DNA of 64,000 nt, from IMG/VR virus record IMGVR_UViG_3300037493_007233, positions 9,647-73,646 of that record; one strand, written 5' to 3'. Both the position numbers and the translations under genes were made by a program. Source of the stretch: a virus. Shown here piece after piece: positions 775 through 58,567 of this stretch (positions are counted from its first letter, which is position 1; each line of letters starts with the position of its first letter). Below the pieces are notes generated by a model. The model saw nothing but the letters and a program-made list of their open reading frames with translations, was not told where the DNA came from and did no database searches.

Positions 775-1497
775 TTAGTCACGCTTCAACACACTACTCC
801 TACTATATTTTATAAAATTATTAACATCGATGTTTTCCCTATTAAAGGATTCGGAATAGTTCAGACCTAAAATATCTTTTGCAAGGTCTTCGCTATGCTG
901 GTGCTCGTGGATTGAAGGGTTTCTATCAGATCTAAAATATCTCCACCAGCTTTGAACAAGCCATCCGGGATTTTGATTGAATTCCTCATAAGAAGAATCC
1001 CGGACAAATCTTCCTATATTATATTTAGCGTAAATAAAGTTTTCGCAAGGAGAATTTAAATCAATAAAATTCTCTTTACCCCTGGATAATGATATACGGT
1101 CCAAAAGAAATTCGGGAACACCAAATATTAAATCGCATTCATGTTTTTTTCTAAATTCGTAACAAACGTCTATCCAGACCTGAAGCTCGTGGAAGCAAGT
1201 TGTTTGTAGATCTATTCTAATTGTTTTATTTTTGGCGTTATAAACTAATTCCTCAACTAAAACCATTCCTTCGCCTTCAAGAAAACAAAACCATTGGATC
1301 TTTGCATCACAGAAAAACGATCTATTAAAACAAAACCAATGATGTTTTTTAAGATTTTGAATACTCGAGTGAAACAAATATTCACCACTCTCAGAAATTT
1401 TTTCGCTAACGATACATGTAAATTCTTCGACATCAGAGAATTTTTCAGGGATGTCGATATTTTCGATGTAAAGGCCGTCGATGAATTTTGCTATCAT
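775..1497 (-). CDS. Aah/TibC-type heptosyltransferase N-terminal-like protein (degenerate); paralog of 14353..14988
   Basis: FIDG start and YNAKNKTIRIDL...EFRKKHECDLI segment resemble the strand-loop-strand O-heptosyltransferase N-domain; LGD motif absent. Confidence 0.45.
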   Translation of the reverse strand: MIAKFIDGLYIENIDIPEKFSDVEEFTCIVSEKISESGEYLFHSSIQNLKKHHWFCFNRSFFCDAKIQWFCFLEGEGMVLVEELVYNAKNKTIRIDLQTTCFHELQVWIDVCYEFRKKHECDLIFGVPEFLLDRISLSRGKENFIDLNSPCENFIYAKYNIGRFVRDSSYEEFNQNPGWLVQSWWRYFRSDRNPSIHEHQHSEDLAKDILGLNYSESFNRENIDVNNFIKYSRSSVLKRD

Positions 1498-12763: not shown

Positions 12764-14356
12764 TTAGGAGATCTTTCTTGAAATTATAAAATCTTCAGTG
12801 ACAATATGATCTACAACCCCATCAATTAGATGTCTAATTACTTGATGCGGGTAGTTGTTAATTGGCTCACCGTGTGCATTGAAGGACGTATTGAGCACAA
12901 CGGGTATTCCTGAGATTTTATAGTATTCAGAGATGATCGAATGGAAGTTGGGATTGTTTTCAGAATTAACAATCTGTGGTCTAGAAGATCTATCTAGAAG
13001 CTGGACTACAGCAGGGATGGTCTCCAGCCATTCAGTCCTTGTGTTGTAGCACAATGTCATAAATTCCGCCGAATATTTAGACTTATCACATTCGAAGATC
13101 GAATCAGCATATTCTTCCAACACCGATGGTGCAAAAGGCATAATCTCAGTTCTCTTTAGCTTTTGGTTAAGTTTGGAGTGTGTTTCTGGATCTGTTGGCT
13201 TTACTACTATACTTCGGTTTCCTAAAGCTCTTGGCCCATATTCAGTCCTACCGAAAAAGCATCCAATAACATCACCATCCTGAATAAGCTGTGCAACTTT
13301 TTGGTATGTCATTTCTTGACACACCACATGCTCAGCATTTTCAGATAAAGGGGTTTCCCACTTTTCCTTGCCGTGAGATTCACCAAGGAATGCATTCTTT
13401 AATCTTTTGGGTCTATTGTATTCACCAATCTCATTGGCACAGATTAGAGCAGCACCTAATGCAAGACCTCCGTCTCCCATAGAAGGGTGAATAAACATCT
13501 CATCGAAAATGTCAAGAGAATTTATATGCTGGTTTAGCTTCACATTAGCAAAAAGACCGCCAGAGAAACAAATCTTTCTGTAATCCGGATGTCTTTGTGA
13601 AAGATCAGTCAGGAAATTTTCCATAATCTCTTCAGAATATTTCTGAAGCGTAAAAGCAAAATCTTCTCTATTTCCTGGGTGATTCAAAAATCCATTATGT
13701 AAACAATATTGATCAAAAATGTAGTGGAAAATTGATTCCCAGTTGGCAGGTTGAAAACTTAAATTTCCATCGTAAGAAATACACATCTTAAGCCAATCAT
13801 AGATTTTCTGCGAAAACTTTCCATGAGCAGCAAGACCAACTACTTTACCCTCATCTTTAAGCATTGTCCAGCCTAAGAAATTTGTAGAAGCAGCCCATAT
13901 ACCAGCTAGTGATGCTGTCGTTGGAATGTGTTGAGAATGTATTTCCTCCATCTCTCCATTTTCACAAAGCAGAATTTTTCCTCTGCTTCTATATCCCTTA
14001 CCGTCGTGGCTTACTGAGATAACCTTACCTTCAAAGCCAGAGGTCAGGTAAGATCCCATTGTATGGCAGTGATGGTGTGAGTAAGTTCTAGATTTTTTCT
14101 GTTGATCTGAAGTAATATTCTTAATAAAATTTCTGTAATATGGTCTTGAAAGTGCTATGTAATCACAATTCTCCAAAGTTACTCCATATTCTCTATTAAT
14201 TACATCAAGTGAAAGGTCCGGAAATTGCCAGTTAGAGTGACAAGCCTTAACACCTGTCATTTTCTCCTCTTCCATTGCAAATAATATTTCGCCATCAACA
14301 ATCAAGGCGGTTGAAGTATCGTGTGCTCCGTAGTTTAATCCTATAATTTTACTCAT
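12764..14356 (-). CDS. O-carbamoyltransferase (NodU/CmcH/TobZ family), copy 2
   Basis: GAHDTS, HHHCH, DGKG, EGKVVG, GGLFANVKLN, GDGG, EYGPRALGNRS, PFAP, NTSFNAHGEPI. Confidence 0.93.
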   Translation of the reverse strand: MSKIIGLNYGAHDTSTALIVDGEILFAMEEEKMTGVKACHSNWQFPDLSLDVINREYGVTLENCDYIALSRPYYRNFIKNITSDQQKKSRTYSHHHCHTMGSYLTSGFEGKVISVSHDGKGYRSRGKILLCENGEMEEIHSQHIPTTASLAGIWAASTNFLGWTMLKDEGKVVGLAAHGKFSQKIYDWLKMCISYDGNLSFQPANWESIFHYIFDQYCLHNGFLNHPGNREDFAFTLQKYSEEIMENFLTDLSQRHPDYRKICFSGGLFANVKLNQHINSLDIFDEMFIHPSMGDGGLALGAALICANEIGEYNRPKRLKNAFLGESHGKEKWETPLSENAEHVVCQEMTYQKVAQLIQDGDVIGCFFGRTEYGPRALGNRSIVVKPTDPETHSKLNQKLKRTEIMPFAPSVLEEYADSIFECDKSKYSAEFMTLCYNTRTEWLETIPAVVQLLDRSSRPQIVNSENNPNFHSIISEYYKISGIPVVLNTSFNAHGEPINNYPHQVIRHLIDGVVDHIVTEDFIISRKIS

Positions 14357-16586: not shown

Positions 16587-18047
16587 TTACTCGAATTTTA
16601 TTCCGGTATGTGGTTTACCATTAGACTTGTATTGATTGTAGTCTTTATCGAAATTTTCTGTTGCTATAAACTTAGTATCTGGATTTACCATGACACCCAT
16701 AGCTTTCATCGTATTTCTATTTATTAGGAGGGGAGTACTTTTATGGGTTCTATCTAATATAGCAACTTTCATCGTGTAGGGATTGCCTAAGAATTTTATT
16801 TCCATTTCTACCGTTGGATACTTAATAACTCCTTTACTGTGGATGCCCCCTGAGATATCAGTTTGCCCAATTATCTTCTTTTTAAATTTCTTTTTTCCTA
16901 TTTCGAAATATAGGGTTTTTCCTTTTTCTTCGACCTTATCTCCGTGAAGTACACAGCAAAGAGTCCCATTCCCTGTATCAAATTTCCCTATCACTTTTCC
17001 TAGTCCTTCAACCTCAACAGTTTCCATATATCCAACCTCGATGCTGGGAAGAATCCAGTTATTTTGATCCATTAAGAAATCAATCACGTCATTTACAATA
17101 GGCTTTCCAAGAGCTTCAGAAATTCCCTCCGTTCCAGGCGAAGAATTTACTTCTAACACATAAGGCTTGTTGGTCTTCTGATCGATCATGATATCAACTC
17201 CACTCCAATTACACCCAGTTTCCCTGGCTGCTTTGAAAGCAATTTCCTCAATTTCTTTAGTTAATTTTACTTTTTCAACAGTTCCACCCAGAGAATAGTT
17301 AGTTCTAAAGTCTTTACCTACGGAATTTCTTCTCATTGCTCCTATAATTCTATAGTTTCCAGGATGATCTAAATCTCTTATATCGATGTTTTTTATTAGA
17401 ACGTGAATTCTAAGATCATATTTAGAGTCTATTTTTTCCTGCAACAGAACTTCGCCGGTCTCATCCAGTTTCTTAATAGTCTGGAAAACAGATTTTAATG
17501 AATTAAAAGAATCTACTATTGAAACTCCGATTCCTTTCGATCCTGTTAATAACTTCATAACAACAGGAAATTTTCCTCCTATAGTCTTTACTGCTTCCTC
17601 CATTTTTTCTTCTGAAGAAAGGATTGCATATCTGGGAACAGGAACCCCAACATTTTTTAAAATTTGACACGTGGAAAATTTATTCTCACAAATTTCCATA
17701 GGAAGAAGTCTGTTGACTATAAAATATCTTCCGGCTTCAAGTGTTCTTAATATCTCTTTATTGTGAGTGCTTTTAAGAACCCCAGATCTTGCTACTATTA
17801 TAGTAGAATCGGGGTAAGCACTAGCTTCTTGTTTTCCGTCGCTAATTAAATATCCTCCATCGATTTTTTTTAACTCAGTTAAATCTATGTCTAGGACATT
17901 AATCTTAATTTTCTTCTTTTTACATTCTTTTTCGAGGGACCGGGAAAATTCATTTGTTCCACCTCCAATAAGAACAACCATATTGGGTTTTACTGACCTA
18001 GCTTCGTTCAGAAATGTTTCGAAGTCTACTATCCTATTAAAGGTCAT
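16587..18047 (-). CDS. rimK: RimK-family ATP-grasp ligase fused to C-terminal RimB-like aspartic protease
   Basis: ENKF, GSKGIGV, LLQE, DFRTNYSLGG, GVDI, LEVNSSPG; C-domain GKFDTGN and LLINRN. Confidence 0.85.
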   Translation of the reverse strand: MTFNRIVDFETFLNEARSVKPNMVVLIGGGTNEFSRSLEKECKKKKIKINVLDIDLTELKKIDGGYLISDGKQEASAYPDSTIIVARSGVLKSTHNKEILRTLEAGRYFIVNRLLPMEICENKFSTCQILKNVGVPVPRYAILSSEEKMEEAVKTIGGKFPVVMKLLTGSKGIGVSIVDSFNSLKSVFQTIKKLDETGEVLLQEKIDSKYDLRIHVLIKNIDIRDLDHPGNYRIIGAMRRNSVGKDFRTNYSLGGTVEKVKLTKEIEEIAFKAARETGCNWSGVDIMIDQKTNKPYVLEVNSSPGTEGISEALGKPIVNDVIDFLMDQNNWILPSIEVGYMETVEVEGLGKVIGKFDTGNGTLCCVLHGDKVEEKGKTLYFEIGKKKFKKKIIGQTDISGGIHSKGVIKYPTVEMEIKFLGNPYTMKVAILDRTHKSTPLLINRNTMKAMGVMVNPDTKFIATENFDKDYNQYKSNGKPHTGIKFE

Positions 18048-30051: not shown

Positions 30052-30471
30052 TCAATCGTTACTTTGGGTAACCTCTGAAGATAAAAGTCTTTGAATCCTA
30101 TTTTTTGCTCTTTCTTGGAGTGGAATTGGATTACCCTCCTCGTCTATACAGACAAATTTGATATTAGTTTTAAGAATTATAGTTTGATTCCCGGTATAAA
30201 CGTTGTGCGCTCTAGCCTCCATGTAAAGTGTTATGGAGGTAGTTCCTAATTTTGAGGGTGACCCGTAAATTTTAATAAGCTGTCCTTCTTTAGCAGGCTT
30301 TTCAAAAAAACATTTGTCGATAGAAACCGTAACCATTCTGGGGGTATCACAAAGCTGCATAGAATATCCTGCAGCCGCAGCGTCGATCCAAGCCAAAAGC
30401 TTGCCGCCAAAAAGATTACCATGAAATCCCAAATCCGATTTTTTAATCGGATGTGTGTTTAGTAACTCCAT
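30052..30471 (-). CDS. Hotdog-fold acyl-CoA thioesterase (YciA-like)
   Basis: HGNLFGGKLLAWID, VTVSID, GTTSI, FVCIDEEGNP. Confidence 0.88.
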   Translation of the reverse strand: MELLNTHPIKKSDLGFHGNLFGGKLLAWIDAAAAGYSMQLCDTPRMVTVSIDKCFFEKPAKEGQLIKIYGSPSKLGTTSITLYMEARAHNVYTGNQTIILKTNIKFVCIDEEGNPIPLQERAKNRIQRLLSSEVTQSND

Positions 30472-31745
30472 TATGCTGGTTGTACTGGTTGCTTTTGAGC
30501 TTGTTGTTGTCTTAGTTTTTGAGCAGCAGCACCCCTAAATTGTTCAACATTCTTTGCAATCCTTTGCTGCTCTTGCTGGCCCATTTGCGGGAAGAAAGGC
30601 ATTTCCATAACTGCTTTCATTTTCTCGTATGCAATTTCTGGGTTTCCTGTATGGAATGCACATAAAGAGAATTCATCCAAAAGTCTCCATTGCCAAATTT
30701 CGGGTTCAACAAAAAGAATATCTGAAGTTCCCGGATTTTTCAAAGCCATACTTCCGTAGGTGAAAGCTAATACCCATCTTCCTTGCTCTCTCAATTTTCT
30801 CATGCAATGGAAAGCTGCCTCCAATCTTTCTGGTCTAAATTCCCAAGCTTTTGAATAAGCTTGAACAACTTCATCCGGATGTCTTCCGAGTCTTTCCTTA
30901 ATTCTTGCAATCATATAAAGAGCGTAGTAAACCTCTTCTGGCCATCCCCCAACATCTACCCTTCTTTGGTAAGCTTCAAGGGCCTTAAGGTTTTGACTAG
31001 AATCCCTGTAACTTTGTGCCAGATAAAACATGTATCGGGAATTGCTTGGATCCTTTTCTAGAGCTTTTTCAAGTATCTCAGCATCTTTGGAATATTTCTC
31101 CTCCAAGCTGTCTGCCCTTTTCAAAGGACTAATGTTTGCATTTACCTTACACTTATCTCCTGGGATCTGTGATTGAATAACAGGATCCTTTCCCTGGAGA
31201 TCCAAATACTCGTGCAAAACTCCTTTATAAGTCCAATCCTGATCAGATCTAACAATTTGAGCCCTGTGATATTGTAAAGAATTCAATCTATACATGATTT
31301 GGAAGCAATCAACTCCCTGAGGAAGTTCTGCAAAAGGATTAATTCCTGGGGTTTCTACTTCAAAAAGATCATCGGCATCAATAATCCAGCGGTAATCGCA
31401 GATTCCTTTTGATAGCTCCAAACTCTCTGTACGGTTAACCTCAAAATCAACCCAAGGTCTTTCGTGGATCTCACCAGGAATGTTAAGTTCTTCCATGGTT
31501 GACCTAATTTCATCTATGGTGTTATCTTTTGAACCGGTATCACAGATAACATAATATGAAATAAAAGGTGCTACCCTAGTTAAACATTTTCTAATTGTGT
31601 CGCCCTCATCTTTAACGATCATAACAAGACAAAAAGAAAAAGTTTGTCTTGGATCTTTGGGCGTAAATTTAGAATTTGTTTTAGGAGTTGGCTTTTTAGA
31701 AGCTTGTTTTGGTTTACTTGGATTATTTCTTTTAGAAGAGGCCAT
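30471..31745 (-). CDS. GT2-family glycosyltransferase with TPR repeats
   Basis: MIVKDE, DTGSKD, IDAD, GVLHE, RYMFYLAQSY. Confidence 0.88.
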   Translation of the reverse strand: MASSKRNNPSKPKQASKKPTPKTNSKFTPKDPRQTFSFCLVMIVKDEGDTIRKCLTRVAPFISYYVICDTGSKDNTIDEIRSTMEELNIPGEIHERPWVDFEVNRTESLELSKGICDYRWIIDADDLFEVETPGINPFAELPQGVDCFQIMYRLNSLQYHRAQIVRSDQDWTYKGVLHEYLDLQGKDPVIQSQIPGDKCKVNANISPLKRADSLEEKYSKDAEILEKALEKDPSNSRYMFYLAQSYRDSSQNLKALEAYQRRVDVGGWPEEVYYALYMIARIKERLGRHPDEVVQAYSKAWEFRPERLEAAFHCMRKLREQGRWVLAFTYGSMALKNPGTSDILFVEPEIWQWRLLDEFSLCAFHTGNPEIAYEKMKAVMEMPFFPQMGQQEQQRIAKNVEQFRGAAAQKLRQQQAQKQPVQPA

Positions 31746-44757: not shown

Positions 44758-46674
44758 TTACTTTGGCATCTCAGCAGAGAGCAGGGTGTAAAGATTTAGA
44801 ACAGATTTCGGTAGAAGCTTCTTAAGTGAAGCAAAATCTTCACTTTTTAATTTGTCTCGTACCTCTGTTGCAGAAGTAAATCTAGGGGTAACTTCCAGCC
44901 CAAAATCCTTCGGTAAATTGTCTATTAGATCTGATCTCTTGATATACTCGATCTGCTTCTCGTAGTAATCTTTACGGTCGTCCCCAGCTGCAATTAAATG
45001 TGGTTCTAGACCCATCATTACAAGCTTGTTTATGATAGAACCTACTAAACCCCTATCGACTATCATATAATCTACGAGATCCTCTGGATTATCCTTAACC
45101 ACGGCTTCCATATACTGCTTAATGATCCTTTCATCAAAAGGAGATTTACCAGATTTGATATGCCCAGGATATACAACAACCACAAAACTTGGGAGGTTGT
45201 TTTTCTCCTTTAATTTCTTAGCCATTTTTAAATGTCCAGAATGAAATGGCTGGAATCTGCCAATAAGGACGTTAACAGCTTTTGGATCCTCTGGTGCTTT
45301 TTCTACAAGTTGATCCTTATCGTCCTTTGTCTGGTTATCGATAGTTTCCAATTTGCTAATAAACTCATCGTAAGAAAAGAAAGGATTTTCTGATCTTTCA
45401 GATTCCTCATTTTCCTCCTGGATGTAATCTACGTTTGGTATAAACTCCTTTTTAAAATCAGAGAAAGAAACAAACTCAGATTCATTAACGGGGGATTTCT
45501 CTTTTTTAATGTAATCCTTGATATCCTGAATTAACAGATTCAGCTGCTCAACCATACCTGAGGTCACAATACCTGTCGCTCTGGTTTTAATTTTGCGGAA
45601 TGAATTTAGGATAAGTTTGAAAAGAGATTCAAAAGATTCATCCTCTTCAACATACTTAAGAACTTTTCTGTCAGTAATCAGATTCTTATTAAGTCGAAAA
45701 TCTTCTTTTTTCAAATAGCTAGGCTCTTCAAAATCGGTCCCCTTGTATTTCTCCTTGTTTTCATCCAAAAACTTAGCGAACACATCTGATATAAACGAAA
45801 TGTATCTTTCATCTTCTGTATCACCTTCTACTTCGAAATTCTTTAATCCTTTCTCGAGAATAAAGTTCATCACATCCAAAAGAGTAATACCCAAAAAGTC
45901 GCTAGGCTTCTTTTCTCTTTGTTCTGAACTCTTCTGCTTTGCTATCTCGGTAAAAATTGGATCTACCATTTTAGCAAGAACAGTTTCATTTTCTTTATTG
46001 GGATCACCAAATCTAAAAACAATTCCTTCAACCTCTTTATCTAGATCTTCATTCAATGCGCTTTTAGAAAGTTCAGGATTCAAAGTAGAAATGATGTATC
46101 TCACAAAACTCTGGGTAGAGAATCTTTCCACTAATTTTTTGAACGGGGTATTTAGAAATTCTAGAAGTTTTGACTTCTGATCCTCATCGAGTTTACCTTG
46201 AAATATAATAGGAGAATGCTCAACGCCTAATAGATCAGCCCATTCATCTAAAGATGATTTTTTCTGTATAGTCTTAACTATTTTTCCAGCATCGTCTAAT
46301 TGGTGAACGTATGATAGAATCAAATGATTCTTGGGTAATCTATCATAAACAATCTCAACCGGATTTGTGTTGGCAAAGTATTCTAGTCCAAATCTCCACC
46401 CTCTTGGTATTTTTTGAATCACATGGGGTGGGAGAGATTCGATATACTGGATTGGCTTTTCGTAGTACTTCATCAGAGTCCTATCGACCAAGGTAATAGG
46501 ATTTCTTTGGTCCCTTCTGTAAAATTTGAATTTTCCTGTGTCCTTATCTCTTTCGAAACTAAAGGCAGATCCATCCATCTTTTCGTTGATGGTAACATAT
46601 TGATTAAAAAGCTGATTTACGAAATCAGCTCCTTTTTTATTGTAAAGGTCGTATAGGTGATTAATTCCAGCCAT
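44758..46674 (-). CDS. Fusion of ATP-dependent ligase-like domain and HIGH-class (NadM/cytidylyltransferase-like) domain
   Basis: EKMDGS, GLEY, EGIVFRF, AKMV; C-terminal GRFQPFHSGH, AGDDR, SATEVR. Confidence 0.75.
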   Translation of the reverse strand: MAGINHLYDLYNKKGADFVNQLFNQYVTINEKMDGSAFSFERDKDTGKFKFYRRDQRNPITLVDRTLMKYYEKPIQYIESLPPHVIQKIPRGWRFGLEYFANTNPVEIVYDRLPKNHLILSYVHQLDDAGKIVKTIQKKSSLDEWADLLGVEHSPIIFQGKLDEDQKSKLLEFLNTPFKKLVERFSTQSFVRYIISTLNPELSKSALNEDLDKEVEGIVFRFGDPNKENETVLAKMVDPIFTEIAKQKSSEQREKKPSDFLGITLLDVMNFILEKGLKNFEVEGDTEDERYISFISDVFAKFLDENKEKYKGTDFEEPSYLKKEDFRLNKNLITDRKVLKYVEEDESFESLFKLILNSFRKIKTRATGIVTSGMVEQLNLLIQDIKDYIKKEKSPVNESEFVSFSDFKKEFIPNVDYIQEENEESERSENPFFSYDEFISKLETIDNQTKDDKDQLVEKAPEDPKAVNVLIGRFQPFHSGHLKMAKKLKEKNNLPSFVVVVYPGHIKSGKSPFDERIIKQYMEAVVKDNPEDLVDYMIVDRGLVGSIINKLVMMGLEPHLIAAGDDRKDYYEKQIEYIKRSDLIDNLPKDFGLEVTPRFTSATEVRDKLKSEDFASLKKLLPKSVLNLYTLLSAEMPK

Positions 46675-52985: not shown

Positions 52986-53729
52986 TCATATTTTTTTGAA
53001 GTTTTCCTGAACTATCTCGTGTTCCCAAACATTATTGGAACGCAACGAAATCCTTATATCTGGTCTTTCCACGCCAAACTCAGAATTAAAGAGGTGGTGT
53101 TTTAGTAAAGTTTCAGCATGGAAAAAAACACTATCATAAATTATATAGGATTCCAAAAAATCGAACATATTGCAATAGTGTACCATAGCATCTCTACCAC
53201 CATAAGCAAAAATATCATTTACTCCTTTTTTCCAATCGTAACCAGGTGGGATAGAAATTACATTCGGATCTTCTTGGATAATTAATGGGTCGTGAATGTT
53301 TATGTCGAATCTTCCCTTAATTACCAGGTCGTATCTTTCTCCAACCAATTCTTCGTAATCCTGCATAAGCTTAGAGGCGGATTGGATTTTATACCACATA
53401 CAAAAAATTGATACTGGATTTGTTTCTCCGGTCATCGGACCATAAACATCCAGATTCCAAGCCCTATTCTTTATACTGTCAGCATAGGGTGAATTAAAAT
53501 CCTCTGATTTAATAAATTTAGGTTTGAGGATTTCTATAATATCATCTATGGTTGCTGTGTCCTTTAATTTTTGAGTGTATGCGTTGATCGAATTAGAAAA
53601 ATCAGCTCCTGGGTTCCAGCAGGATATAAAAATATCCGGATTGTATACATCTATAATTTGTTCCTTCAGTGAGGGATAGCAATAAAGTATTTCTCTAAAA
53701 TGCCCGGATAATAATAAAGCTGTTTTCAT
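52986..53729 (-). CDS. Putative glycosyltransferase-like protein
   Basis: ALLLSGHFR, DIFISCW, MWYKI, YDLVIKGRFD, VNDIFAYG, HAETLL; likely start MKTALL at 53729. Confidence 0.6.
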   Translation of the reverse strand: MKTALLLSGHFREILYCYPSLKEQIIDVYNPDIFISCWNPGADFSNSINAYTQKLKDTATIDDIIEILKPKFIKSEDFNSPYADSIKNRAWNLDVYGPMTGETNPVSIFCMWYKIQSASKLMQDYEELVGERYDLVIKGRFDINIHDPLIIQEDPNVISIPPGYDWKKGVNDIFAYGGRDAMVHYCNMFDFLESYIIYDSVFFHAETLLKHHLFNSEFGVERPDIRISLRSNNVWEHEIVQENFKKI

Positions 53730-54160
53730 TTTACATAGTGTGAAATGTAATCGGAGCAAATTCCTAAACAAGAAGAAACCTCTTCACCATATAACTCAGG
53801 TAGCACAGCAATTGAATTGGCGATAGGCTGGTGACCCGGATAAATCCATAAATACCCATTGCTTGTGATTGTAGCATGATCCTCCTGGTGCCAAAAATAA
53901 TGAAGACCTGTTTCATACAAATTAGAAAGTGCGTCCAAATTCTTTGCGTGAATCCACAAAGAATTTTTTCTTTCCTCTAGCCACTCTAAAGAAATCTCAT
54001 GCTGTCCACCGTCGTGTCCTAAAACCCATTTGTTTTTTATAAACCAAATGTCAATCTCAACATTGAATCCCTCGGATATTGCCTCATTAATATAATCTGG
54101 GTGATTTTCCCTGTAAGGCTGTCTGCCGTTTAAATTTCCTCTATGAGATATTAAAATCAT
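53726..54160 (-). CDS. Short GDPD/PLC-like phosphodiesterase
   Basis: ISHRGN, EN, VEIDIW, LGHD, WIHAKN, GICSD. Confidence 0.75.
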   Translation of the reverse strand: MILISHRGNLNGRQPYRENHPDYINEAISEGFNVEIDIWFIKNKWVLGHDGGQHEISLEWLEERKNSLWIHAKNLDALSNLYETGLHYFWHQEDHATITSNGYLWIYPGHQPIANSIAVLPELYGEEVSSCLGICSDYISHYVK

Positions 54161-54163
54161 GCT

Positions 54164-55399
54164 CTAAAAAATCCTATAAGCTAAATCATCAGGCAAGCTT
54201 TTTCTTCCCCATTTCTCAATCGCAGCCTTGTATTCTGGTTGTTCAAATTCTCTATCGATGGCCTGTCGCATTGCCAACCCACCAGCTCTTGTTCCTTCTG
54301 GATGCCCGTGCAATGCACCTCCAACGTTAGCCATCCAATCAACACTATTTAAATACTGATTGATGAATTCGACCAAACCTGGATGCATTCCACAGCTAAG
54401 TGCTGGGACGATGTTGTAGTTCCAAAGGACCTTTAAGCAATCATTTAATTCATCATCATCTTGATTCATATACCCACCTATCATACCGGCGTGAATGGAA
54501 TCAGAACCAGACCATCCTGCTATTTTACAGATCACAGGCCAATAGATATGGAATGGTGCTCTTTTGTCAGTAAAAAATTTATCTCCGCTCTTTTGGAAAT
54601 GAATCCAAAGATTTGGGTTTTCTTTACGGATTGCTCTATAGACTCCCAATCCACTCCAAACGTTTATATGAATTCCGTTTCCACCGTTTTCTGAAACAAA
54701 CCTAGCTCTTTCTAGAGCATATGGACTGTCCCCGTTGATACAAAAGCAGTAGATAACATCCTGAGCATTTTCCTTCAGCCACTTGGTAATAAGAGGAACT
54801 CTTTCTTCCAGTGGGCAATGATCAGGATTGGCTAAAAGTTCATCCTCCTTGATAAAATTTACTCCTCCGTAAACCATCTCTTTCACAGCTTCAAGAAGTA
54901 CCTCCGGACTCATTCCAACCTTAGGCTTTATAATACCTCCAAGGAATGGCTTGTCGTGAACCCCGTTAAAATCCCTCCAGCCGGTTATTCCATAGGCAGG
55001 ACTAAGAGAAAAACTTTTTTCAACGTCATCTGGTAGCTGGATATCCAGCACATGACATTTTTGGACTTCCAAAATGTCAACTTGACCTCCTGCAACGTGA
55101 CAAAGAATTTGAGAAATTCCATCCTCCTCTAGATTAATATTAGAAAGAGGGAATGCTATTTTTACAATGCCTTCTTTCTTAGTCTTTAATTCTTCCTCAT
55201 CAGCAAGGATAAAGCAACTATGGTTAAGAAACATTTCTTCGGTTTCCCAGACGCTCCTGTTATTAGGATTTCCAATGCTCTGTCCTATTGCTAGATTCCA
55301 TGCTGCTTCACGGAGTGAATTTTTGGACTCTAAAAAGTAAGTTACCAAGAAATATTCTTGGCTATTGAACTCACTTTCTTTTCTAAATATTTTTACCAT
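54164..55399 (-). CDS. RuBisCO-like protein (form IV-like, probably non-carboxylating)
   Basis: GGIIKPKVG, GGVNFIKEDE, DSIHAG, LSCGMHPG, NVGGALHGHPEG, A...WG; loop-6 Lys absent. Confidence 0.92.
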   Translation of the reverse strand: MVKIFRKESEFNSQEYFLVTYFLESKNSLREAAWNLAIGQSIGNPNNRSVWETEEMFLNHSCFILADEEELKTKKEGIVKIAFPLSNINLEEDGISQILCHVAGGQVDILEVQKCHVLDIQLPDDVEKSFSLSPAYGITGWRDFNGVHDKPFLGGIIKPKVGMSPEVLLEAVKEMVYGGVNFIKEDELLANPDHCPLEERVPLITKWLKENAQDVIYCFCINGDSPYALERARFVSENGGNGIHINVWSGLGVYRAIRKENPNLWIHFQKSGDKFFTDKRAPFHIYWPVICKIAGWSGSDSIHAGMIGGYMNQDDDELNDCLKVLWNYNIVPALSCGMHPGLVEFINQYLNSVDWMANVGGALHGHPEGTRAGGLAMRQAIDREFEQPEYKAAIEKWGRKSLPDDLAYRIF

Positions 55400-55722
55400 T
55401 AATCAATAATGAACTTATCCCCTTTAACGCTTGGTGTTTTTACTATGAAAACCTCACAATCTTCTAAAAATACAGGATCTGCAATTTCGTTTCTTCTGAG
55501 AATGAAAATGTCTCCAGCAGCCAATTCCTTTCCTTGTATTATCATTCTACCGGATCTTAAGAAGTTTATTTCGTCAGCCTCTTTGTGGTAATGTTTAGGC
55601 CACTCCTCACCTGCAAAGTGCTTTTTGTAGCAGACCTCAAAATCCTTGGTTGGAAAGCATGATGGGTAGAAGTCTCCGACGTACCAACCCCCTTTATAAT
55701 CTTCAATCTTGTAAATATCCAT
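55399..55722 (-). CDS. Cupin-fold protein
   Basis: GWYVGDF.P, HYHKEADEIN, VKTPS..GDK. Confidence 0.75.
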   Translation of the reverse strand: MDIYKIEDYKGGWYVGDFYPSCFPTKDFEVCYKKHFAGEEWPKHYHKEADEINFLRSGRMIIQGKELAAGDIFILRRNEIADPVFLEDCEVFIVKTPSVKGDKFIID

Positions 55723-56455
55723 TTTTAAAAGTCTCTTGATATTTTAGTAAATCCTCAGGCGTTCCTATTGGATAGTGTAGGTTATAGAAGAAAGGAAGTA
55801 TTTTCTTTCCATTCTTTACAAGATAATTGTAAGAAGGAGCAATGTAAAACTCGTTATTATAGGTTTCGTTAGCTTCTATCATTTTTTCTGCAGATTCTAC
55901 AAAATCTGATCCCTTCATCCAAAAATGAATACCGTTGGTAGCAATGTGGCTTATTACAACCTTTTCTTTTACGTCCAGGATTTTTCCTTCGATGTCCAAT
56001 TTAACATAGCTGTTTTTTGGAGAATTTGAAAGAAAGCATCCAAGCACACCGTCTGCATTATTAGCCAAAGAGAATCCATACAATTTTTGGAAATCGAAAT
56101 CATGTACCATCTGATCGCAATTTGCAATTATAAGTGGGGTGTCATTAAGGATTGAATCGGATGCAAGAAGAGCAGAACAAGCAGGTCCATCAGTAACCTC
56201 TTTTACTGTAATAAGGGTAAACATTTCAAGCAAGGTTCCAATGTGATAGTGAAAATCTATAGCAGAAACCTGTTTCTCGTTAATAATAAAGATAAAATGA
56301 GCACCTTCAAAATTTAGGTTTTTGATGACCGATCTTATCATGGAGTCATCAAAAACTTCAATAAACGGTTTCGGTTTTGTGAAACCTGCCGAAGAAAATC
56401 TGCTTCCTAATCCACTCATAGGGATTAGAATATTGCATTTATTACTTCTTGGCAT
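55703..56455 (-). CDS. Sugar-phosphate nucleotidyltransferase (GT-A fold, RmlA/GlmU-like)
   Basis: IPMSGLGSRF...PKPFI, TDGPA, IANCDQ, KEK, NNEFYIAP, IGTPEDL. Confidence 0.85.
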   Translation of the reverse strand: MPRSNKCNILIPMSGLGSRFSSAGFTKPKPFIEVFDDSMIRSVIKNLNFEGAHFIFIINEKQVSAIDFHYHIGTLLEMFTLITVKEVTDGPACSALLASDSILNDTPLIIANCDQMVHDFDFQKLYGFSLANNADGVLGCFLSNSPKNSYVKLDIEGKILDVKEKVVISHIATNGIHFWMKGSDFVESAEKMIEANETYNNEFYIAPSYNYLVKNGKKILPFFYNLHYPIGTPEDLLKYQETFKNGYLQD

Positions 56456-57110
56456 CTTTTAAATTCTCAATCAAGTAAAGACAGATCCAAGAAGCATCAA
56501 TGATATCATCCATTGGTTTGTTTACAGATCCTGAACCAGTAATCCAATTCCCTTTGTGTGTATCCAATATTTTTGTTAGGTGCGAAAAATTTGTTTCTGG
56601 TACCTGTTTATCAATGATAGCGTGATAAAGTTCATCTTTCTTGGCATTTCCCTTCTTGGCAAATTTCTTAATTGATGTTGGTGAATACACAAAGAAATTC
56701 TCGGAGCCAATGGTATCTACTATTTTCTTTCTAATAAGAGCAGTTGCCATAGAAATGTCAATCAAAGCGTTACCATTAGAGGAAAAACTTAATCCTTCCA
56801 TAGCGATACTGATACTTTGTCCATCGATAAGAGGTTCAACATGTGTCCAGAAAACGTCCACAAGATCTTGAAAATAATCAATCTTTACCCGTTCTCTTGC
56901 TGAATATTCCTCCGGCATTTCTTTTTTGGTTAAGAAGAAAAGGTCTATATTCTGATCTTTTTCCAAAATAGAATATGGCTTATCCTTACTTTTTCTAAGA
57001 GATTCGGGTGTTCTATCAGACCTCGTCAAACTGCCCCATTTAAAATTTTCGCCATTAAAAACACAAAAAGCAGGAGAATTCAGGGAGAAATCTATACCAA
57101 CATAAATCAT
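56442..57110 (-). CDS. RuvC-like Holliday junction resolvase
   Basis: GIDFSLNSPA, MEGLSF, PTSIKKFA..GNAKKDE, DDIIDA. Confidence 0.75.
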   Translation of the reverse strand: MIYVGIDFSLNSPAFCVFNGENFKWGSLTRSDRTPESLRKSKDKPYSILEKDQNIDLFFLTKKEMPEEYSARERVKIDYFQDLVDVFWTHVEPLIDGQSISIAMEGLSFSSNGNALIDISMATALIRKKIVDTIGSENFFVYSPTSIKKFAKKGNAKKDELYHAIIDKQVPETNFSHLTKILDTHKGNWITGSGSVNKPMDDIIDASWICLYLIENLKDAKK

Positions 57111-57148: not shown

Positions 57149-58567
57149 TTAGATCCCCTCATATGATCCGTTGAACTGAAGCCTGTCAGTAGGTCTCCAA
57201 CCGAATGGATTATTGACATCAACTGCAACAGCGGGAACTGAAGTAGTAATAATCGAAGAAGAACCTACAGCACCAGAATAACTTCCAGTTACTATCCCTG
57301 CGTACCAAATAAAACTAAACTGATCTACCATAGAACATGGGAATTGAATTCCATCAGCATCTACTGCGTTAACGGGTAAGCTAAAACTCCAAGCCCCCGT
57401 TCCGTATGATGTAGTTGACCCAGCAGTCATCTCAACTCTTACAAAAACCGTTTTTCCTGCCGTGGTATAAGACCCTCTTAATATTCCGTTACCTATAACT
57501 GGTTGAGGGCTAGAAGCACTTGACCAAATAACAGAATAAGATAGCCAAGAAGAATTACTAATTCCCGCTCCTGAGGTTCCTGATGAACCAGAAGTACCTG
57601 ATGAACCAGAAGTACCTGAGGTTCCTGAAGATCCACTTGTTCCAGAGGTTCCCGATGTACCTGATGTTCCAGAAGTTCCATTGGCACCGGATGTTCCAGA
57701 AGAACCAGATGTCCCAGAGGTACCCGAGGTACCCGAGGTACCTGAAGTTCCATTAGTACCGGATGTTCCAGAGGTTCCAGAAGTTCCATTGGCACCGGAT
57801 GTTCCAGAAGTTCCATTAGAACCGGATGTTCCAGAAGTTCCTCGTGTTCCAGAAGATCCACTTGTTCCGGAAGTACCAGCAGATCCTGACCCGCTTGTTC
57901 CGGAAGACCCAGAAGTTCCAGAGGTACCAGCAGATCCTGAGGACCCACTTGTTCCGCTAGATCCTGAGGTACCACGTGTTCCTGAGGTTCCAGCAGATCC
58001 TGAAGAACCACTTGTCCCTGACGTTCCAGCAGAACCTGACGTTCCAGCAGATCCCGAAGAACCACTCGTTCCTGACGTTCCTGACGTTCCTGTAGATCCT
58101 GATGATCCAGTTATTCCAGAAGTTCCTGACGAACCGCTCGTTCCCGATGTTCCTCTTGTACCTGAGGTACCAGCCGATCCTGAAGAGCCACTTGTCCCGC
58201 TAGTCCCAGCAGAGCCCGAGCCTGTTCCTCCGCCCGTTGAATTACCATTCATATTCGAGAATGTAACGGAAACAGAGGGGTCAAAAGAAAAATCAATAGT
58301 TGCTAGGGTTCTTTCCGGATTGGTAACTAATCCTTGTATTGAAGAAATTACCTCGCTGAAAAGTTGATAGCCATATTCTGTTTTTGAAAAATATACTATA
58401 GTTCCATAATAAAACCTGCTAGAGGTTAAACTTGATCCAGTAAAAACGCTTGTAAAATATAGATAGCATCCGTCCTGGACCGCTTGAATCTCAGACAGGG
58501 AATCAAGTGTGAAAGAAGTGTAGAGCGTGCTTCCTCCTGAATAATATTTTATCTGGATATTTTTCAC
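57149..58567 (-). CDS. Virion fibre-like protein with long G-[T/S]-[S/A/N/R] tripeptide repeat and beta-rich C-terminal domain
   Basis: About 220 aa of GTSGTSGSSG-type repeats. Confidence 0.75.
   Translation of the reverse strand: MKNIQIKYYSGGSTLYTSFTLDSLSEIQAVQDGCYLYFTSVFTGSSLTSSRFYYGTIVYFSKTEYGYQLFSEVISSIQGLVTNPERTLATIDFSFDPSVSVTFSNMNGNSTGGGTGSGSAGTSGTSGSSGSAGTSGTRGTSGTSGSSGTSGITGSSGSTGTSGTSGTSGSSGSAGTSGSAGTSGTSGSSGSAGTSGTRGTSGSSGTSGSSGSAGTSGTSGSSGTSGSGSAGTSGTSGSSGTRGTSGTSGSNGTSGTSGANGTSGTSGTSGTNGTSGTSGTSGTSGTSGSSGTSGANGTSGTSGTSGTSGTSGSSGTSGTSGSSGTSGSSGTSGAGISNSSWLSYSVIWSSASSPQPVIGNGILRGSYTTAGKTVFVRVEMTAGSTTSYGTGAWSFSLPVNAVDADGIQFPCSMVDQFSFIWYAGIVTGSYSGAVGSSSIITTSVPAVAVDVNNPFGWRPTDRLQFNGSYEGI
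57570..58235 (-). repeat. Degenerate 9-bp coding tandem repeat (Gly-Xaa-Ser)
   Basis: Units such as GTTCCAGAA/GTACCTGAG repeated throughout. Confidence 0.9.

What the first reader, a model, noticed from the sequence alone, without database searches (positions are those of the whole stretch)
52986..56455. Phage-encoded RuBisCO-like protein in a five-gene nucleotide-sugar operon
Seen: five overlapping genes, in transcription order sugar nucleotidyltransferase > cupin > RLP > GDPD-like phosphodiesterase > GT-like protein. By eye alignment to form I, the RLP keeps K175/K177 (IKPKVG), the carbamate/Mg motif K201-x-D203-E204 (KEDE), H327 and the P1 phosphate loop (SCG, GG..GHP), but lacks E60, H294/R295 (HFQK) and loop-6 K334 (HAGMIGGY). 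Known: form IV RLPs do enolase, isomerase, decarboxylase or transcarboxylase chemistry on sugar phosphates (methionine salvage, apionate and hamamelose catabolism). Inference: not CO2 fixation; the RLP probably makes an unusual, perhaps branched, sugar that is NDP-activated and transferred to a phage substrate. No methionine-salvage genes are in the window. I know of no described biosynthetic RLP pathway in a virus.
Basis: partly seen in the sequence, partly recalled or inferred. Interest (0 to 1): 0.92.

Follow-up and report, generated by a model that had tools for sequence, protein, structure and literature searches.

The report
Phage RuBisCO-like sugar-activation gene cassette
A large freshwater phage carries a RuBisCO relative that cannot fix CO2 and that travels with, and elsewhere is fused to, a sugar-activating enzyme and a small metal enzyme, so it probably helps build an unusual activated sugar unit, a job never tested for this enzyme family.

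Summary
Five co-directional, overlapping or abutting minus-strand genes at 52986-56455 encode a nucleotidyltransferase, a 107-aa cupin, a 411-aa RuBisCO-like protein (RLP), a 144-aa miniature GDPD-like phosphodiesterase and a GT-A-fold transferase.

The RLP is not a carboxylase. In all 87 dereplicated clade members the counterparts of E60, N123, H294, R295 and K334 are replaced by one fixed set of residues. The Mg/carbamate core is kept. The RLP reaches no NCBIfam cut-off for form III, MtnW or OiaX.

Linkage is strong. Among the 53 dereplicated viral loci, an NTase lies within 5 kb in 51, a cupin in 50 and a GDPD in 42. Among the 34 cellular loci (SAR11, DPANN, Legionella), an NTase does so in 31. 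Six bona fide RuBisCO loci have none of these neighbours. Natural NTase-cupin and RLP-NTase-cupin fusions exist.

The neighbours are glycan genes. The best reading is an enolising isomerase or epimerase that feeds an NDP-activated sugar or sugar-phosphate unit; the substrate is unknown.

Phage RLPs were already reported by Jaffe et al. 2018, function unknown. Eight literature searches found no description of this cassette. This scan has found the same cassette before on other DNA, with the same reading.

The parts
55703..56455 (-). Sugar-phosphate nucleotidyltransferase (250 aa), first gene of the cassette
   Evidence: It matches PF00483 at 8.3e-11, 42.4 bits against a cut-off of 21.2, and phrog_3980 at 1.6e-57. 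The closest solved chain is 4evw, an 'NDP-sugar pyrophosphorylase', at 6.9e-14, followed by RmlA at about 2e-4. A homolog lies within 5 kb of the RLP in 51 of 53 viral and 31 of 34 cellular dereplicated loci.
55399..55722 (-). Small metal-type cupin (107 aa)
   Evidence: It matches phrog_24762 at 4.5e-31. H44, H46 and E51 (an HxH..E motif), W13, E29 and D102-K103 are invariant in 31 homologs. The family profile hits the cupins 2h0v/1y3t at about 1e-6, the small cupins 7zvm/7zvy at 1e-4 and KdgF at 0.03. It is fused to the C-terminus of the NTase in 16 ORFs of the 80 viral loci.
54164..55399 (-). RuBisCO-like protein (411 aa) of the 'form IV-like', NTase-linked clade
   Evidence: It matches PF00016 at 6.7e-33 and PF02788 at 3e-5. 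Every NCBIfam equivalog score is far below its cut-off. In the tree it lies in a clade of 87 rows, separated from 6 bona fide RuBisCOs by a branch with SH-aLRT support of 100. The active-site substitutions are fixed across the clade.
53726..54160 (-). Miniature GDPD-like phosphodiesterase (144 aa)
   Evidence: It matches phrog_34507 at 2.8e-29. H6, R7, G8, E35, D37, H49, H71, K73 and H91 are invariant in 44 homologs. The family profile hits the solved GDPD 7e0v at 2.2e-4. The AF2 model has pLDDT 97.4, and 6 of its 10 best Foldseek hits are GDPDs. In DPANN and other cellular loci a full-length PF03009 GDPD takes its place.
52986..53729 (-). GT-A-fold transferase-like protein (247 aa from the ATG at 53729; the ORF is open from a TTG at 53771)
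   Evidence: It matches phrog_13607 at 1e-17. Relatives match DUF7796 weakly, below the cut-off. The AF2 model has pLDDT 90.2, and Foldseek matches GT6 BoGT6a at 2.5e-7 and glycogenin GT8 at about 1e-5. The ATGA overlap with the preceding gene was read directly. It is the least conserved part: 29 of 53 viral and 6 of 34 cellular loci have a homolog.

Best explanation
The five genes are one copy of a mobile cassette that makes an activated (NDP- or CDP-linked) unusual sugar or sugar-phosphate unit and passes it on to a glycan.

Proposed roles:
- The RLP uses the retained carbamylated-lysine/Mg2+ site to enolise a ketose phosphate and re-protonate it. That makes it an isomerase or epimerase, not a carboxylase.
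- The cupin carries out a second, metal-dependent isomerisation. The NTase-cupin fusions mirror the architecture of bifunctional mannose-6-phosphate isomerase / GDP-mannose pyrophosphorylases (recalled).
- The nucleotidyltransferase activates the product.
- The miniature GDPD makes, trims or recycles a phosphodiester.
- The GT-A-like protein transfers the unit.

What is shown: gene content, the retained and replaced active-site residues, conserved linkage, fusions, and a glycan-gene context. What is inferred: the type of chemistry, the order of steps, the substrate, the nucleotide and the acceptor.
For: 1. The enolisation core is kept and the carboxylation residues are lost, identically in 87 of 87 dereplicated clade members from phages, SAR11, DPANN and Legionellaceae. 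This argues for one conserved chemistry that is not carboxylation.
2. Linkage within 5 kb of the RLP, using HMMs built here. In the viral loci (n=53): NTase 51, cupin 50, any GDPD 42, GT-A-like 29. In the cellular loci (n=34): NTase 31, any GDPD 23, cupin 9, GT-A-like 6. In six bona fide RuBisCO loci from the same scan: none of the four.
3. Only 14 of the 80 viral loci share this phage's replication-gene backbone, so the cassette moves between genomes.
4. Fusions. There are 16 NTase-cupin ORFs, 13 HAD_2-NTase ORFs and 1 GDPD-like-GT-A-like ORF. Two metagenomic proteins of 813 and 817 aa carry RLP and NTase domains. P0121 carries RLP, then NTase (E 2e-25), then cupin (E 2e-28). In P0122 the cupin part rests on a weak Cupin_2 hit (8.7e-4).
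5. Recurrent neighbours are sugar-tailoring genes. They include an SDR epimerase/dehydratase (29 viral loci), CmcI-, TylF- and FkbM-type methyltransferases, a DegT aminotransferase, a transaldolase-like protein and a UDP-GlcNAc 2-epimerase. In cellular loci the commonest are GT2 (13 of 144 ORFs), methyltransferases (9), full-length GDPD (8), SDR (7), WavE, Bac_transf and RmlC.
6. The window itself carries further glycan genes: two NodU-like carbamoyltransferases, a glycosyltransferase and a cytidylyltransferase-domain protein.
Against: There is no biochemical evidence for any step.
- The core holds no kinase or mutase, so the route from a central metabolite to an NTase substrate is unresolved.
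- The cupin was detected in only 9 of 34 cellular loci, so it is not essential to the RLP-NTase pair.
- In 4 of 4 Legionellaceae loci the neighbour is a LicD-family phosphotransferase. Together with the GDPD, this points to transfer of a phospho-unit and not to glycosyl transfer.
- The GT-A-like gene is the least conserved part.
- In this phage the cassette lies among replication genes (RuvC-like, gp32, primase), so DNA could be the acceptor.
- No characterised form IV enzyme was included in my tree.
Confidence: 0.6

Rival explanations
1. The cassette makes the sugar donor for hypermodifying the phage's own DNA. The model is the Ru5P-to-UDP-arabinofuranose pathway that RB69-type T4-like phages use to arabinosylate 5-hydroxycytosine. 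On this reading the GT-A-like protein glycosylates DNA, not a surface glycan.
For: The cassette lies between a RuvC-like resolvase and gp32, beside the primase and helicase, in a T4-like replication module that also holds topoisomerase II, RNR and a DNA polymerase. T4-like phages are known to encode isomerase + kinase-NTase + HAD-phosphatase pathways from Ru5P to NDP-arabinose for DNA glycosylation (PMC13326640, passages read). HAD-NTase fusions occur in this cassette's relatives.
Against: The same cassette sits in chromosomes of SAR11, DPANN, Verrucomicrobiae and Legionella next to GT2, WavE and Bac_transf genes, and in giant-virus MAG contigs. Phage-type DNA glycosylation is not expected there. 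No thymidylate-synthase-like gene (PF00303) is present in the 73.6-kb record, but the record is only about 26% complete, so this is weak evidence. Only 14 of the 80 viral loci place the cassette in this replication backbone.
Confidence: 0.12
2. The product is a CDP-activated phospho-unit (a ketose or pentose phosphate) that is attached through a phosphodiester, in the way phosphocholine or ribitol phosphate is, and not as a glycoside. The GDPD-type enzyme handles that phosphodiester. This is a sharper variant of the best explanation, not a contradiction of it.
For: A LicD-family protein (PF04991, 6.3e-44) lies divergently next to RLP-NTase in 4 of 4 Legionellaceae loci. A GDPD-type phosphodiesterase, mini or full-length, lies within 5 kb in 65 of 87 clade loci. 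In DPANN loci the full-length form matches PF03009 at 1.2e-21. No kinase or mutase is in the core, as would fit direct activation of a primary phosphate monoester.
Against: An HMM of the four Legionellaceae LicD proteins found LicD in none of the other 127 stored loci. The phage's transferase has a GT-A fold that resembles retaining glycosyltransferases. The NTase's nearest solved relatives are sugar-1-phosphate enzymes (4evw, RmlA).
Confidence: 0.2
3. The RLP is a salvage or catabolic enzyme like the characterised form IV proteins. The candidates are methionine/MTA salvage (MtnW), the MTRu-1-P isomerase that works with a cupin methylsulfurylase in Rhodospirillum, or apionate catabolism. On this reading its neighbours are coincidental.
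For: Every characterised RLP is catabolic or salvage (passage in PMC6389311). An RLP-plus-cupin pair is reminiscent of the R. rubrum MTA-isoprenoid shunt (recalled, not tested). The best NCBIfam rows include MtnW at 2.4e-38.
Against: The scores are far below the equivalog cut-offs: MtnW 131.7 against 409 and 108.8 against 513.6, and OiaX 121.6 against 700. No mtn-type kinase, phosphorylase or isomerase appeared among recurrent neighbours. The linkage to the NTase, including fusions, is too consistent to be chance.
Confidence: 0.05
4. The RLP is a working RuBisCO, either fixing CO2 or acting in the form III AMP/nucleotide-salvage pathway.
For: The best NCBIfam row is type III RuBisCO (3.5e-47) and the best solved relative is the form III enzyme 2cwx (9.9e-37).
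Against: It scores 161 bits against a cut-off of 497. The counterparts of E60, N123, H294, R295, H298 and K334 are G, G, Q, K, D and Y in 87 of 87 clade members, except that D273 (at H298) is kept in 81 of 87. All six bona fide RuBisCOs in the same alignment keep the canonical residues.
Confidence: 0.01

Closest known systems
'Form IV-like' RuBisCO-related proteins of phages and Beckwithbacteria (Jaffe, Castelle, Dupont & Banfield, Mol Biol Evol 2018/2019, PMC6389311)
   Same: It is the same kind of protein: a divergent RLP on Myoviridae-type and large phage contigs from many environments, grouping with Beckwithbacteria sequences. In my tree a Beckwithbacteria sequence (L091) nests inside the virus-rich subclade that holds the window's RLP.
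   Different: In the passages I read, that paper leaves the function 'unclear' and does not mention the NTase, cupin and GDPD neighbours or the fusions.
Characterised form IV RLPs: MtnW DK-MTP-1-P enolase, R. rubrum MTRu-1-P isomerase, OiaX decarboxylase
   Same: They share the RuBisCO large-subunit fold, a retained Lys-carbamate/Mg2+ site and lost carboxylation residues. The chemistry is expected to begin with enolisation of a keto-sugar phosphate.
   Different: The window's RLP scores far below each equivalog cut-off. It has a different fixed residue set (G-Q, G-Q-x-D, Q-K-S-G-D, Y, S-C-G). Its context is anabolic and glycan-related, with no salvage or catabolic genes nearby.
Bifunctional type II phosphomannose isomerase / GDP-mannose pyrophosphorylase (NTP_transferase + cupin), recalled
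   Same: The N-terminal PF00483 nucleotidyltransferase followed by a C-terminal metal cupin matches the architecture of the 16 NTase-cupin fusions among the cassette's relatives.
   Different: The cupin here is only about 107 aa and matches no PMI family at Pfam thresholds. The resemblance is one of architecture. Homology of the cupin to PMI was not shown.
Phage Ru5P-to-UDP-arabinofuranose pathway for DNA arabinosylation (RB69, DLP3, HY126 AfhE/AfhF; PMC13326640)
   Same: It is a T4-like-phage-encoded short pathway that diverts a pentose-phosphate-pathway ketose phosphate through an isomerase, a HAD phosphatase and an NTase into an NDP-pentose. The logic is the one I propose here.
   Different: That pathway uses a SIS-type arabinose-5-phosphate isomerase and a kinase-NTase. 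It has no RLP, cupin or GDPD: a search of that paper's text found 0 occurrences each of 'RuBisCO', 'cupin' and 'phosphodiesterase'.
LicC/LicD-type CDP-alcohol activation and phospho-transfer (recalled; LicD Pfam hit)
   Same: An NTase sits next to a LicD-family transferase in the four Legionellaceae loci, and phosphodiester chemistry is implied by the GDPD.
   Different: The window has no LicD, and the phage carries a GT-A-like protein in its place. The NTase showed no match to solved LicC at E <= 0.01.

Membership tests
RuBisCO large-subunit superfamily | N-terminal domain plus C-terminal TIM-barrel domain, over the Pfam gathering scores | tested here: met
   PF00016 scores 114.7 bits (cut-off 30.1) and PF02788 scores 24.6 bits (cut-off 20.7). 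99 solved chains match, the best being 2cwx at 9.9e-37.
Bona fide RuBisCO (forms I-III) | A complete catalytic set including E60, N123, H294, K334 and R295 (spinach numbering, recalled), and the curated family score | tested here: not met
   G39, G105, Q269, Y310 and K270 occupy those columns, whereas six bona fide RuBisCOs have E, N, H, K and R there. rubisco_III scores 161.2 against 497.45, NF003252 145.3 against 438 and NF010002 102.3 against 489.
Bona fide RuBisCO (forms I-III) | Carbamylatable lysine and Mg2+ ligands (K201, D203, E204) plus K175 and K177 | tested here: met
   K184, D186, E187, K158 and K160 are invariant in 87 of 87 clade members and match the bona fide enzymes.
MtnW (2,3-diketo-5-methylthiopentyl-1-phosphate enolase) | Reaches the NCBIfam equivalog cut-off | tested here: not met
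   NF007095 scores 131.7 against 409 and TIGR03332 scores 108.8 against 513.6. Enzyme activity cannot be tested here.
OiaX (3-oxo-isoapionate-4-phosphate decarboxylase) | Reaches the NCBIfam equivalog cut-off | tested here: not met
   NF042437 scores 121.6 against 700.
Phage/Beckwithbacteria 'form IV-like' RLP clade (Jaffe et al. 2018) | Groups with phage and Beckwithbacteria sequences, apart from other forms | tested here: inconclusive
   The window's RLP lies in a 66-row subclade (53 viral rows) that contains a Beckwithbacteria sequence, inside an 87-row clade with SH-aLRT support of 100 against forms III and II/III. The paper's own sequences and the other form IV groups were not in my tree.
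NTP_transferase (sugar-phosphate nucleotidyltransferases, PF00483) | Pfam gathering score and the N-terminal G-x-G-(S/T)-R loop | tested here: met
   It scores 42.4 bits against 21.2. The 'PMSGLGSRF' loop aligns with 'PMAGMSSRF' of 4evw. No equivalog cut-off (RmlA, GalU, GlmU) is reached, so the substrate is unassigned.
Glycerophosphodiester phosphodiesterase (GDPD, PF03009) | A full (beta/alpha)8 barrel of about 240 aa over the Pfam cut-off | tested here: not met
   The 144-aa protein has no Pfam hit at E <= 0.01. Only residues 2-52 of the family profile match solved GDPDs. Foldseek TM-scores normalised to the query are 0.4-0.56 with E > 1e-3.
Glycerophosphodiester phosphodiesterase (GDPD, PF03009) | The catalytic H-R ... 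E-x-D ... H motif | tested here: met
   H6, R7, E35, D37 and H49 are invariant in 44 homologs and align with the same motif of 7e0v. HMMs of the mini form and of the neighbouring full-length PF03009 proteins cross-hit 74 ORFs.
Cupin superfamily | A beta-barrel with metal motif 1, HxH(x)3-4E | tested here: met
   H44, H46 and E51 are invariant. The family profile hits solved cupins at 1.4e-6 to 1.5e-4. The Pfam Cupin_7 score is below its cut-off (17 against 27).
GT-A glycosyltransferases | A GT-A Rossmann-like fold | tested here: met
   Foldseek gives 219 matches at E <= 1e-3. The best are GT6 (2.5e-7) and GT8 glycogenin, at probability 1.00 and TM-score about 0.45.
GT-A glycosyltransferases | A DxD metal/nucleotide-sugar motif and demonstrated transfer | tested here: inconclusive
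   The invariant residues are G8, D31, Y132, R139 and D141. No canonical DxD motif was identified, and activity cannot be tested here.

The most novel reading that the evidence does not exclude
The NTase-linked RLP clade would be the first anabolic use of the RuBisCO fold. On this reading it provides a kinase-free route in which an enolising RLP, with or without a cupin isomerase, reshapes a pentose-phosphate-pathway ketose phosphate into a unit that a dedicated nucleotidyltransferase activates directly. The result would be an undescribed NDP- or CDP-linked pentose, pentulose or phospho-sugar. Phages, giant viruses, SAR11, DPANN archaea and Legionella would use it to decorate surface glycans, or, in T4-like phages, possibly DNA. 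The mini-GDPD would act on the resulting phosphodiester.
Probability: 0.25. Interest if true: 0.85.

Novelty: new variant of a known kind. Interest (0 to 1): 0.62.

Why it matters
RuBisCO-superfamily enzymes are known from CO2 fixation, nucleotide salvage and a few catabolic or salvage pathways. This clade is tied by linkage and by fusion to a nucleotidyltransferase inside glycan gene clusters. If confirmed, that would add a biosynthetic role and probably a new activated sugar.

The clade is widespread. The first protein search gave 2775 hits at E <= 0.001. The IMG/VR scan confirmed 121 viral relatives, including giant-virus MAG contigs. It also occurs in SAR11, one of the most abundant marine bacteria, and in cultured Legionella and Azospirillum strains where it could be tested. 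The product could therefore matter for phage-host recognition and for the cell-surface chemistry of abundant uncultured microbes.

The natural triple fusion P0121 offers a single-polypeptide handle for reconstitution.

Tried and rejected
Searches that found nothing:
- The INPHARED phage collection gave no match to the RLP protein or to 12 kb of DNA.
- PHROGs has no family for the RLP, and the four partner families are all labelled 'unknown function'.
- The ESM Atlas returned only the proteins' own, mostly viral, clusters and generic Cupin_2 or NTP_transferase clusters for the cupin and the NTase. Neither protein has a structure model there.
- An HMM of the Legionellaceae LicD proteins found no LicD in any viral locus or any other cellular locus.
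- PF00303 (thymidylate-synthase-like) is absent from the 73.6-kb record. The record is about 26% complete, so this is uninformative.
- ARAGORN found no tRNA genes.
- The promoter scan found fewer sigma-70-like sites than in shuffled sequence (12 against a mean of 18.6), so no promoter is claimed.

Sequencing runs: no RNA holder is listed. Near-identical DNA stands in sediment, lake and estuary metagenome runs. Five runs from five studies hold at least half of the sampled words, not counting the possible source run. No reads were laid.

Ideas considered and set aside:
- A CO2-fixing or form III role, because of the residue replacements and family scores.
- An MtnW or OiaX role, because of the scores and the gene context.
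- A branched-sugar product, which no tool here can address.
- A RuBP or xylulose-bisphosphate substrate. It is attractive because RuBisCO misfires to xylulose-1,5-bisphosphate (recalled), but the carriers are heterotrophs and no phosphoribulokinase or ribose-1,5-bisphosphate isomerase is nearby.

Not done:
- A phylogeny with characterised form IV references, because no tool supplied those sequences.
- Complex prediction, because no binding claim is made.
- The search of protein representatives and the metagenome-contig scan.

The supplementary files of Jaffe et al. 2018 (fig. S1, gene maps) and of PMC13326640 were closed. They may show gene context that bears on the claim that the cassette is undescribed.

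Full report
OBSERVATION.
- NTase, 55703-56455 (250 aa)
- cupin, 55399-55722 (107 aa)
- RLP, 54164-55399 (411 aa)
- GDPD-like protein, 53726-54160 (144 aa)
- last ORF, 52986-53771

The genes overlap or abut. NTase and cupin overlap by 20 nt, cupin and RLP by 1 nt, and RLP and GDPD-like are 3 nt apart. The last gene most likely starts at the ATG at 53729, which forms an ATGA overlap with the preceding stop codon. The NTase start also overlaps the end of a RuvC-like gene (56442-57110; phrog_159 at 3.2e-15). The only convincing terminator-like hairpin lies after gp32 at 51906-51880. So the five genes are a tight block inside a longer co-directional unit. The window is a T4-like replication region: it holds gp32 (PF08804), topoisomerase II, RNR and a DNA polymerase. 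It comes from a 73.6-kb virus record judged about 26% complete.

WHAT THE FIVE PROTEINS ARE.
- NTase. It matches PF00483 at 8.3e-11. The nearest solved chain is 4evw, an 'NDP-sugar pyrophosphorylase', at 6.9e-14, followed by RmlA at about 2e-4. No equivalog cut-off is reached, so its substrate is unassigned.
- Cupin. The Pfam match is only sub-threshold. Its 31-member family has invariant H44, H46 and E51 (an HxH..E metal motif), and W13, E29 and D102-K103 are also invariant. The family profile hits solved cupins at 1e-6 to 1e-4.
- RLP. It matches PF00016 at 6.7e-33 and PF02788 at 3e-5.
- Mini-GDPD. It has no Pfam hit. Its 44-member family keeps H6, R7, G8, E35, D37, H49, H71, K73 and H91, and the profile aligns with the HRG..ExD..H motif of a solved GDPD at 2.2e-4. 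The AF2 model is confident (pLDDT 97.4). Six of its ten best Foldseek hits are GDPDs (the others are the phage K gp155 C-terminal domain, a beta-1,3(4)-glucanase and second chains of one GDPD entry), at probability 0.90-0.99 but E 6.6e-3 or weaker. It is a cut-down GDPD.
- Last protein. The AF2 model (pLDDT 90.2) has a GT-A fold. The best matches are GT6 (2.5e-7) and glycogenin.

THE RLP IS NOT A CARBOXYLASE AND NOT A KNOWN RLP TYPE. The NCBIfam scores are far below every curated cut-off:
- form III: 161 against 497
- NF003252: 145 against 438
- MtnW: 132 against 409, and 109 against 514
- OiaX: 122 against 700

I aligned 93 dereplicated homologs. Six of them are RuBisCO-type anchors: L126 and L127 pass the form III equivalog cut-off, L128 and L129 pass the NF010002 cut-off, L124 passes the NF003252 subfamily cut-off, and L130 passes none but scores highest for form III at 373 against 497. 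In all 87 other sequences the columns that read E, N, H, R and K in the six anchors (spinach E60, N123, H294, R295, K334; numbering recalled) read G39, G105, Q269, K270 and Y310. The column at spinach H298 reads D273 in 81 of the 87. The neighbouring residues Q40, N44-P45, Q106, D108, H244, N246, S271, M306 and C336 are fixed as well (G308 in 86 of 87). K158 and K160 (K175, K177), K184, D186 and E187 (K201, D203, E204), H303 (H327), S335 and G337 are kept in all 87, and G360-G361 are kept (G361 in 85 of 87).

Inference from established RuBisCO mechanism (recalled): the metal/carbamate site that enolises a 2-keto-3-hydroxy phosphate is preserved. The residues for CO2 addition, hydration and C-C cleavage are gone. 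One distal phosphate site has been remodelled (R to K, H to D). The identical signature in phage, SAR11, DPANN and Legionella sequences argues for one shared, selected chemistry.

PHYLOGENY. The tree was built with IQ-TREE 'quick'. Of 127 RLP ORFs, 125 were at least 370 aa long, and dereplication at 90% identity left 93 rows. The 87 sequences form one clade, separated from the six bona fide enzymes by a branch of length 3.28 with SH-aLRT support of 100. The clade has three parts:
- a Legionellaceae, Francisellaceae, Elusimicrobia and alphaproteobacterial group (5 rows)
- a SAR11, DPANN and Verrucomicrobia group (16 rows)
- a virus-rich group (66 rows: 53 viral and 13 from MAGs or genomes, including Beckwithbacteria)

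The window's protein sits in a 21-row clade (support 100) made of 20 viral rows plus L081. L081 is a contig binned with a Saprospirales MAG, yet it carries this phage's own backbone genes. It is therefore either a mis-binned phage contig or a weak hint at the host. One limit applies: no characterised form IV sequence was available to me, so the relation to MtnW, DeepYkr and similar groups rests on the NCBIfam scores and on Jaffe et al.

LINKAGE. A tblastn search with the window's proteins against the 80 IMG/VR loci found the NTase in 77, the cupin in 76, the mini-GDPD in 63 and the GT-A-like gene in 34. This phage's RuvC, gp32, primase and helicase backbone appears in only 14 of them.

| Loci | n | NTase | cupin | any GDPD | GT-A-like |
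|---|---|---|---|---|---|
| Viral | 53 | 51 | 50 | 42 | 29 |
| Cellular-labelled | 34 | 31 | 9 | 23 | 6 |
| Bona fide RuBisCO | 6 | 0 | 0 | 0 | 0 |

Some of the misses are on short contigs (for example L098 at 3.1 kb and L083 at 4.1 kb).

Where the mini-GDPD is missing in DPANN and other cellular loci, a full-length PF03009 GDPD is present (1.2e-21; 8 of 144 neighbour ORFs). The two HMMs cross-hit 74 ORFs, so the two forms are homologous.

Fusions tie the parts together:
- 16 NTase-cupin ORFs
- 13 HAD_2-NTase ORFs (HAD_2 at 6.6e-30)
- one NTase-NTase ORF
- one GDPD-like-GT-A-like ORF
- two metagenomic proteins, P0121 (813 aa) and P0122 (817 aa), with RLP and NTase domains. P0121 aligns with the window's NTase at 2e-25 and with its cupin at 2e-28; in P0122 the cupin part rests on a weak Cupin_2 hit (8.7e-4).

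CONTEXT. Recurrent companions in viral loci are:
- an SDR epimerase/dehydratase (29 loci)
- CmcI/RMNT-type (21 loci), TylF-type and FkbM-type methyltransferases
- a DegT aminotransferase
- a transaldolase-like protein
- a small HAD protein
- a UDP-GlcNAc 2-epimerase

The cassette also occurs in cellular chromosomes. These include a complete Pelagibacter genome, a Verrucomicrobiae chromosome, DPANN MAGs, Azospirillum oleiclasticum and three Legionella type strains. There the commonest neighbour families are GT2 (13 of 144 ORFs), methyltransferases (9), GDPD (8), SDR (7), WavE, Bac_transf and RmlC. No kinase and no AMP-pathway genes stood out. In SAR11 locus L100 the order is GT17-like, mini-GDPD, an NTase-like protein, RLP, NTase, followed by GT61 and RmlD-like genes. 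In all four Legionellaceae loci a LicD-family phosphotransferase (6.3e-44) lies divergently beside RLP-NTase. LicD was found nowhere else.

HOW IT MOST LIKELY WORKS.
- Shown: an RLP with an intact enolisation core and a fixed non-carboxylase residue set; obligatory association, and in places fusion, with a nucleotidyltransferase; frequent association with a metal cupin and a GDPD-type phosphodiesterase; a glycan-biosynthesis setting.
- Inferred (confidence about 0.6): the cassette turns a common ketose phosphate into an unusual sugar or sugar-phosphate unit, activates it as an NDP or CDP derivative, and hands it to a transferase.
- More speculative: the NTase-cupin fusions copy the architecture of bifunctional PMI/GDP-mannose pyrophosphorylases (recalled), which suggests the cupin is an aldose-ketose isomerase. 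The HAD-NTase fusions and the absence of any kinase recall the heptose pathway and the phage UDP-arabinose pathway, in which a HAD phosphatase precedes the NTase (PMC13326640). The GDPD and the Legionella LicD suggest that, in at least some lineages, the unit ends up in a phosphodiester. The substrate, the nucleotide and the acceptor are not determined.

RIVALS.
- DNA hypermodification (0.12). It fits the cassette's place among replication genes and the RB69 precedent. It does not fit the cellular and giant-virus carriers.
- Salvage or catabolic RLP (0.05). The scores and the gene context argue against it.
- Working RuBisCO (0.01). The residues exclude it.
- Phospho-unit transfer (0.2). This is a sharper version of the main reading and not an opponent of it.

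WHAT IS KNOWN. Jaffe et al. 2018 (PMC6389311; passages read) reported about 80 non-redundant form IV-related sequences on putative phage contigs. Some were from Myoviridae, and they grouped with Beckwithbacteria. The authors called the function unclear. So 'an RLP in a phage' is not new.

Eight full-text searches found no paper that links RLPs with nucleotidyltransferases, cupins, GDPDs or nucleotide sugars in viruses or in SAR11. The library omits most subscription journals, and supplements were closed.

This scan has met the same cassette many times on other DNA, with the same reading. Those notes gave me the leads to look in SAR11 and Legionella and to search for fusions, and I re-tested both here.
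- the negative control of six bona fide RuBisCO loci
- the table of active-site residues fixed across the 87 clade members
- the substitution of the mini-GDPD by a full-length GDPD
- the LicD neighbour in all four Legionellaceae loci

VERDICT. The window's gene is a new member of a reported phage RLP clade. The cassette-level reading, a biosynthetic sugar-activating role for the RuBisCO fold, is a new variant of a known kind. It is untested and could be tested directly. Interest 0.62.

Noticed in passing
window 57149-58567 (-): A 472-aa protein has a long collagen-like Gly-X-Y repeat (Pfam Collagen, 1.9e-30, 4 stretches) and a non-repetitive C-terminal domain. It is probably a fibre or decoration protein and lies just upstream of the RuvC-like gene.
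   Followed up: no
window 1494-3080 (-) and 12764-14356 (-): There are two paralogous NodU/'Nol-like' carbamoyltransferases (phrog_1601, about 2e-87 each). This suggests O-carbamoylated sugars and adds to the glycan-modifying load of this phage.
   Followed up: no
window 30471-31745 (-), 44758-46674 (-), 16587-18047 (-): Three further genes have sugar- or AMG-like annotations: a beta-1,4-glycosyltransferase-like protein (phrog_13126, 3.1e-21), a 638-aa protein with a C-terminal cytidylyltransferase domain (phrog_395, 5.7e-10) and an RimK/ATP-grasp-like protein (phrog_2599, 1.8e-18).
   Followed up: no
L081 (contig of a MAG labelled uncultured Saprospirales), whole locus: This contig carries the same RuvC, cassette, gp32, primase and helicase order as the window (RLP 79%, helicase 83% identity). 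It is either a phage contig mis-binned into a Bacteroidota MAG or a hint at the host.
   Followed up: partly
L118, L120, L121, L123 (Legionellaceae), about 3.5-10 kb of each locus: A conserved island holds LicD, RLP and NTase together with a 113-aa protein, a 148-aa secreted-looking protein and two membrane proteins of about 330 aa that have no Pfam family. It may be a lineage-specific phospho-decoration system.
   Followed up: partly
L078:8001-9176: The RLP match on this giant-virus MAG contig contains one in-frame stop codon. It may be a pseudogene, a sequencing error or recoding. I left it out of the alignment.
   Followed up: no
L100:7243-7983 and the equivalent ORFs in L103 and L099 (SAR11): SAR11 loci have a second, divergent NTase-like ORF directly upstream of the RLP, in addition to the NTase downstream. 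It has no Pfam hit at 1e-3 but clusters with the NTase family.
   Followed up: partly
window, whole: All 21 ORFs of at least 330 aa lie on the minus strand, GC skew is negative almost throughout, and no tRNA genes were found.
   Followed up: no
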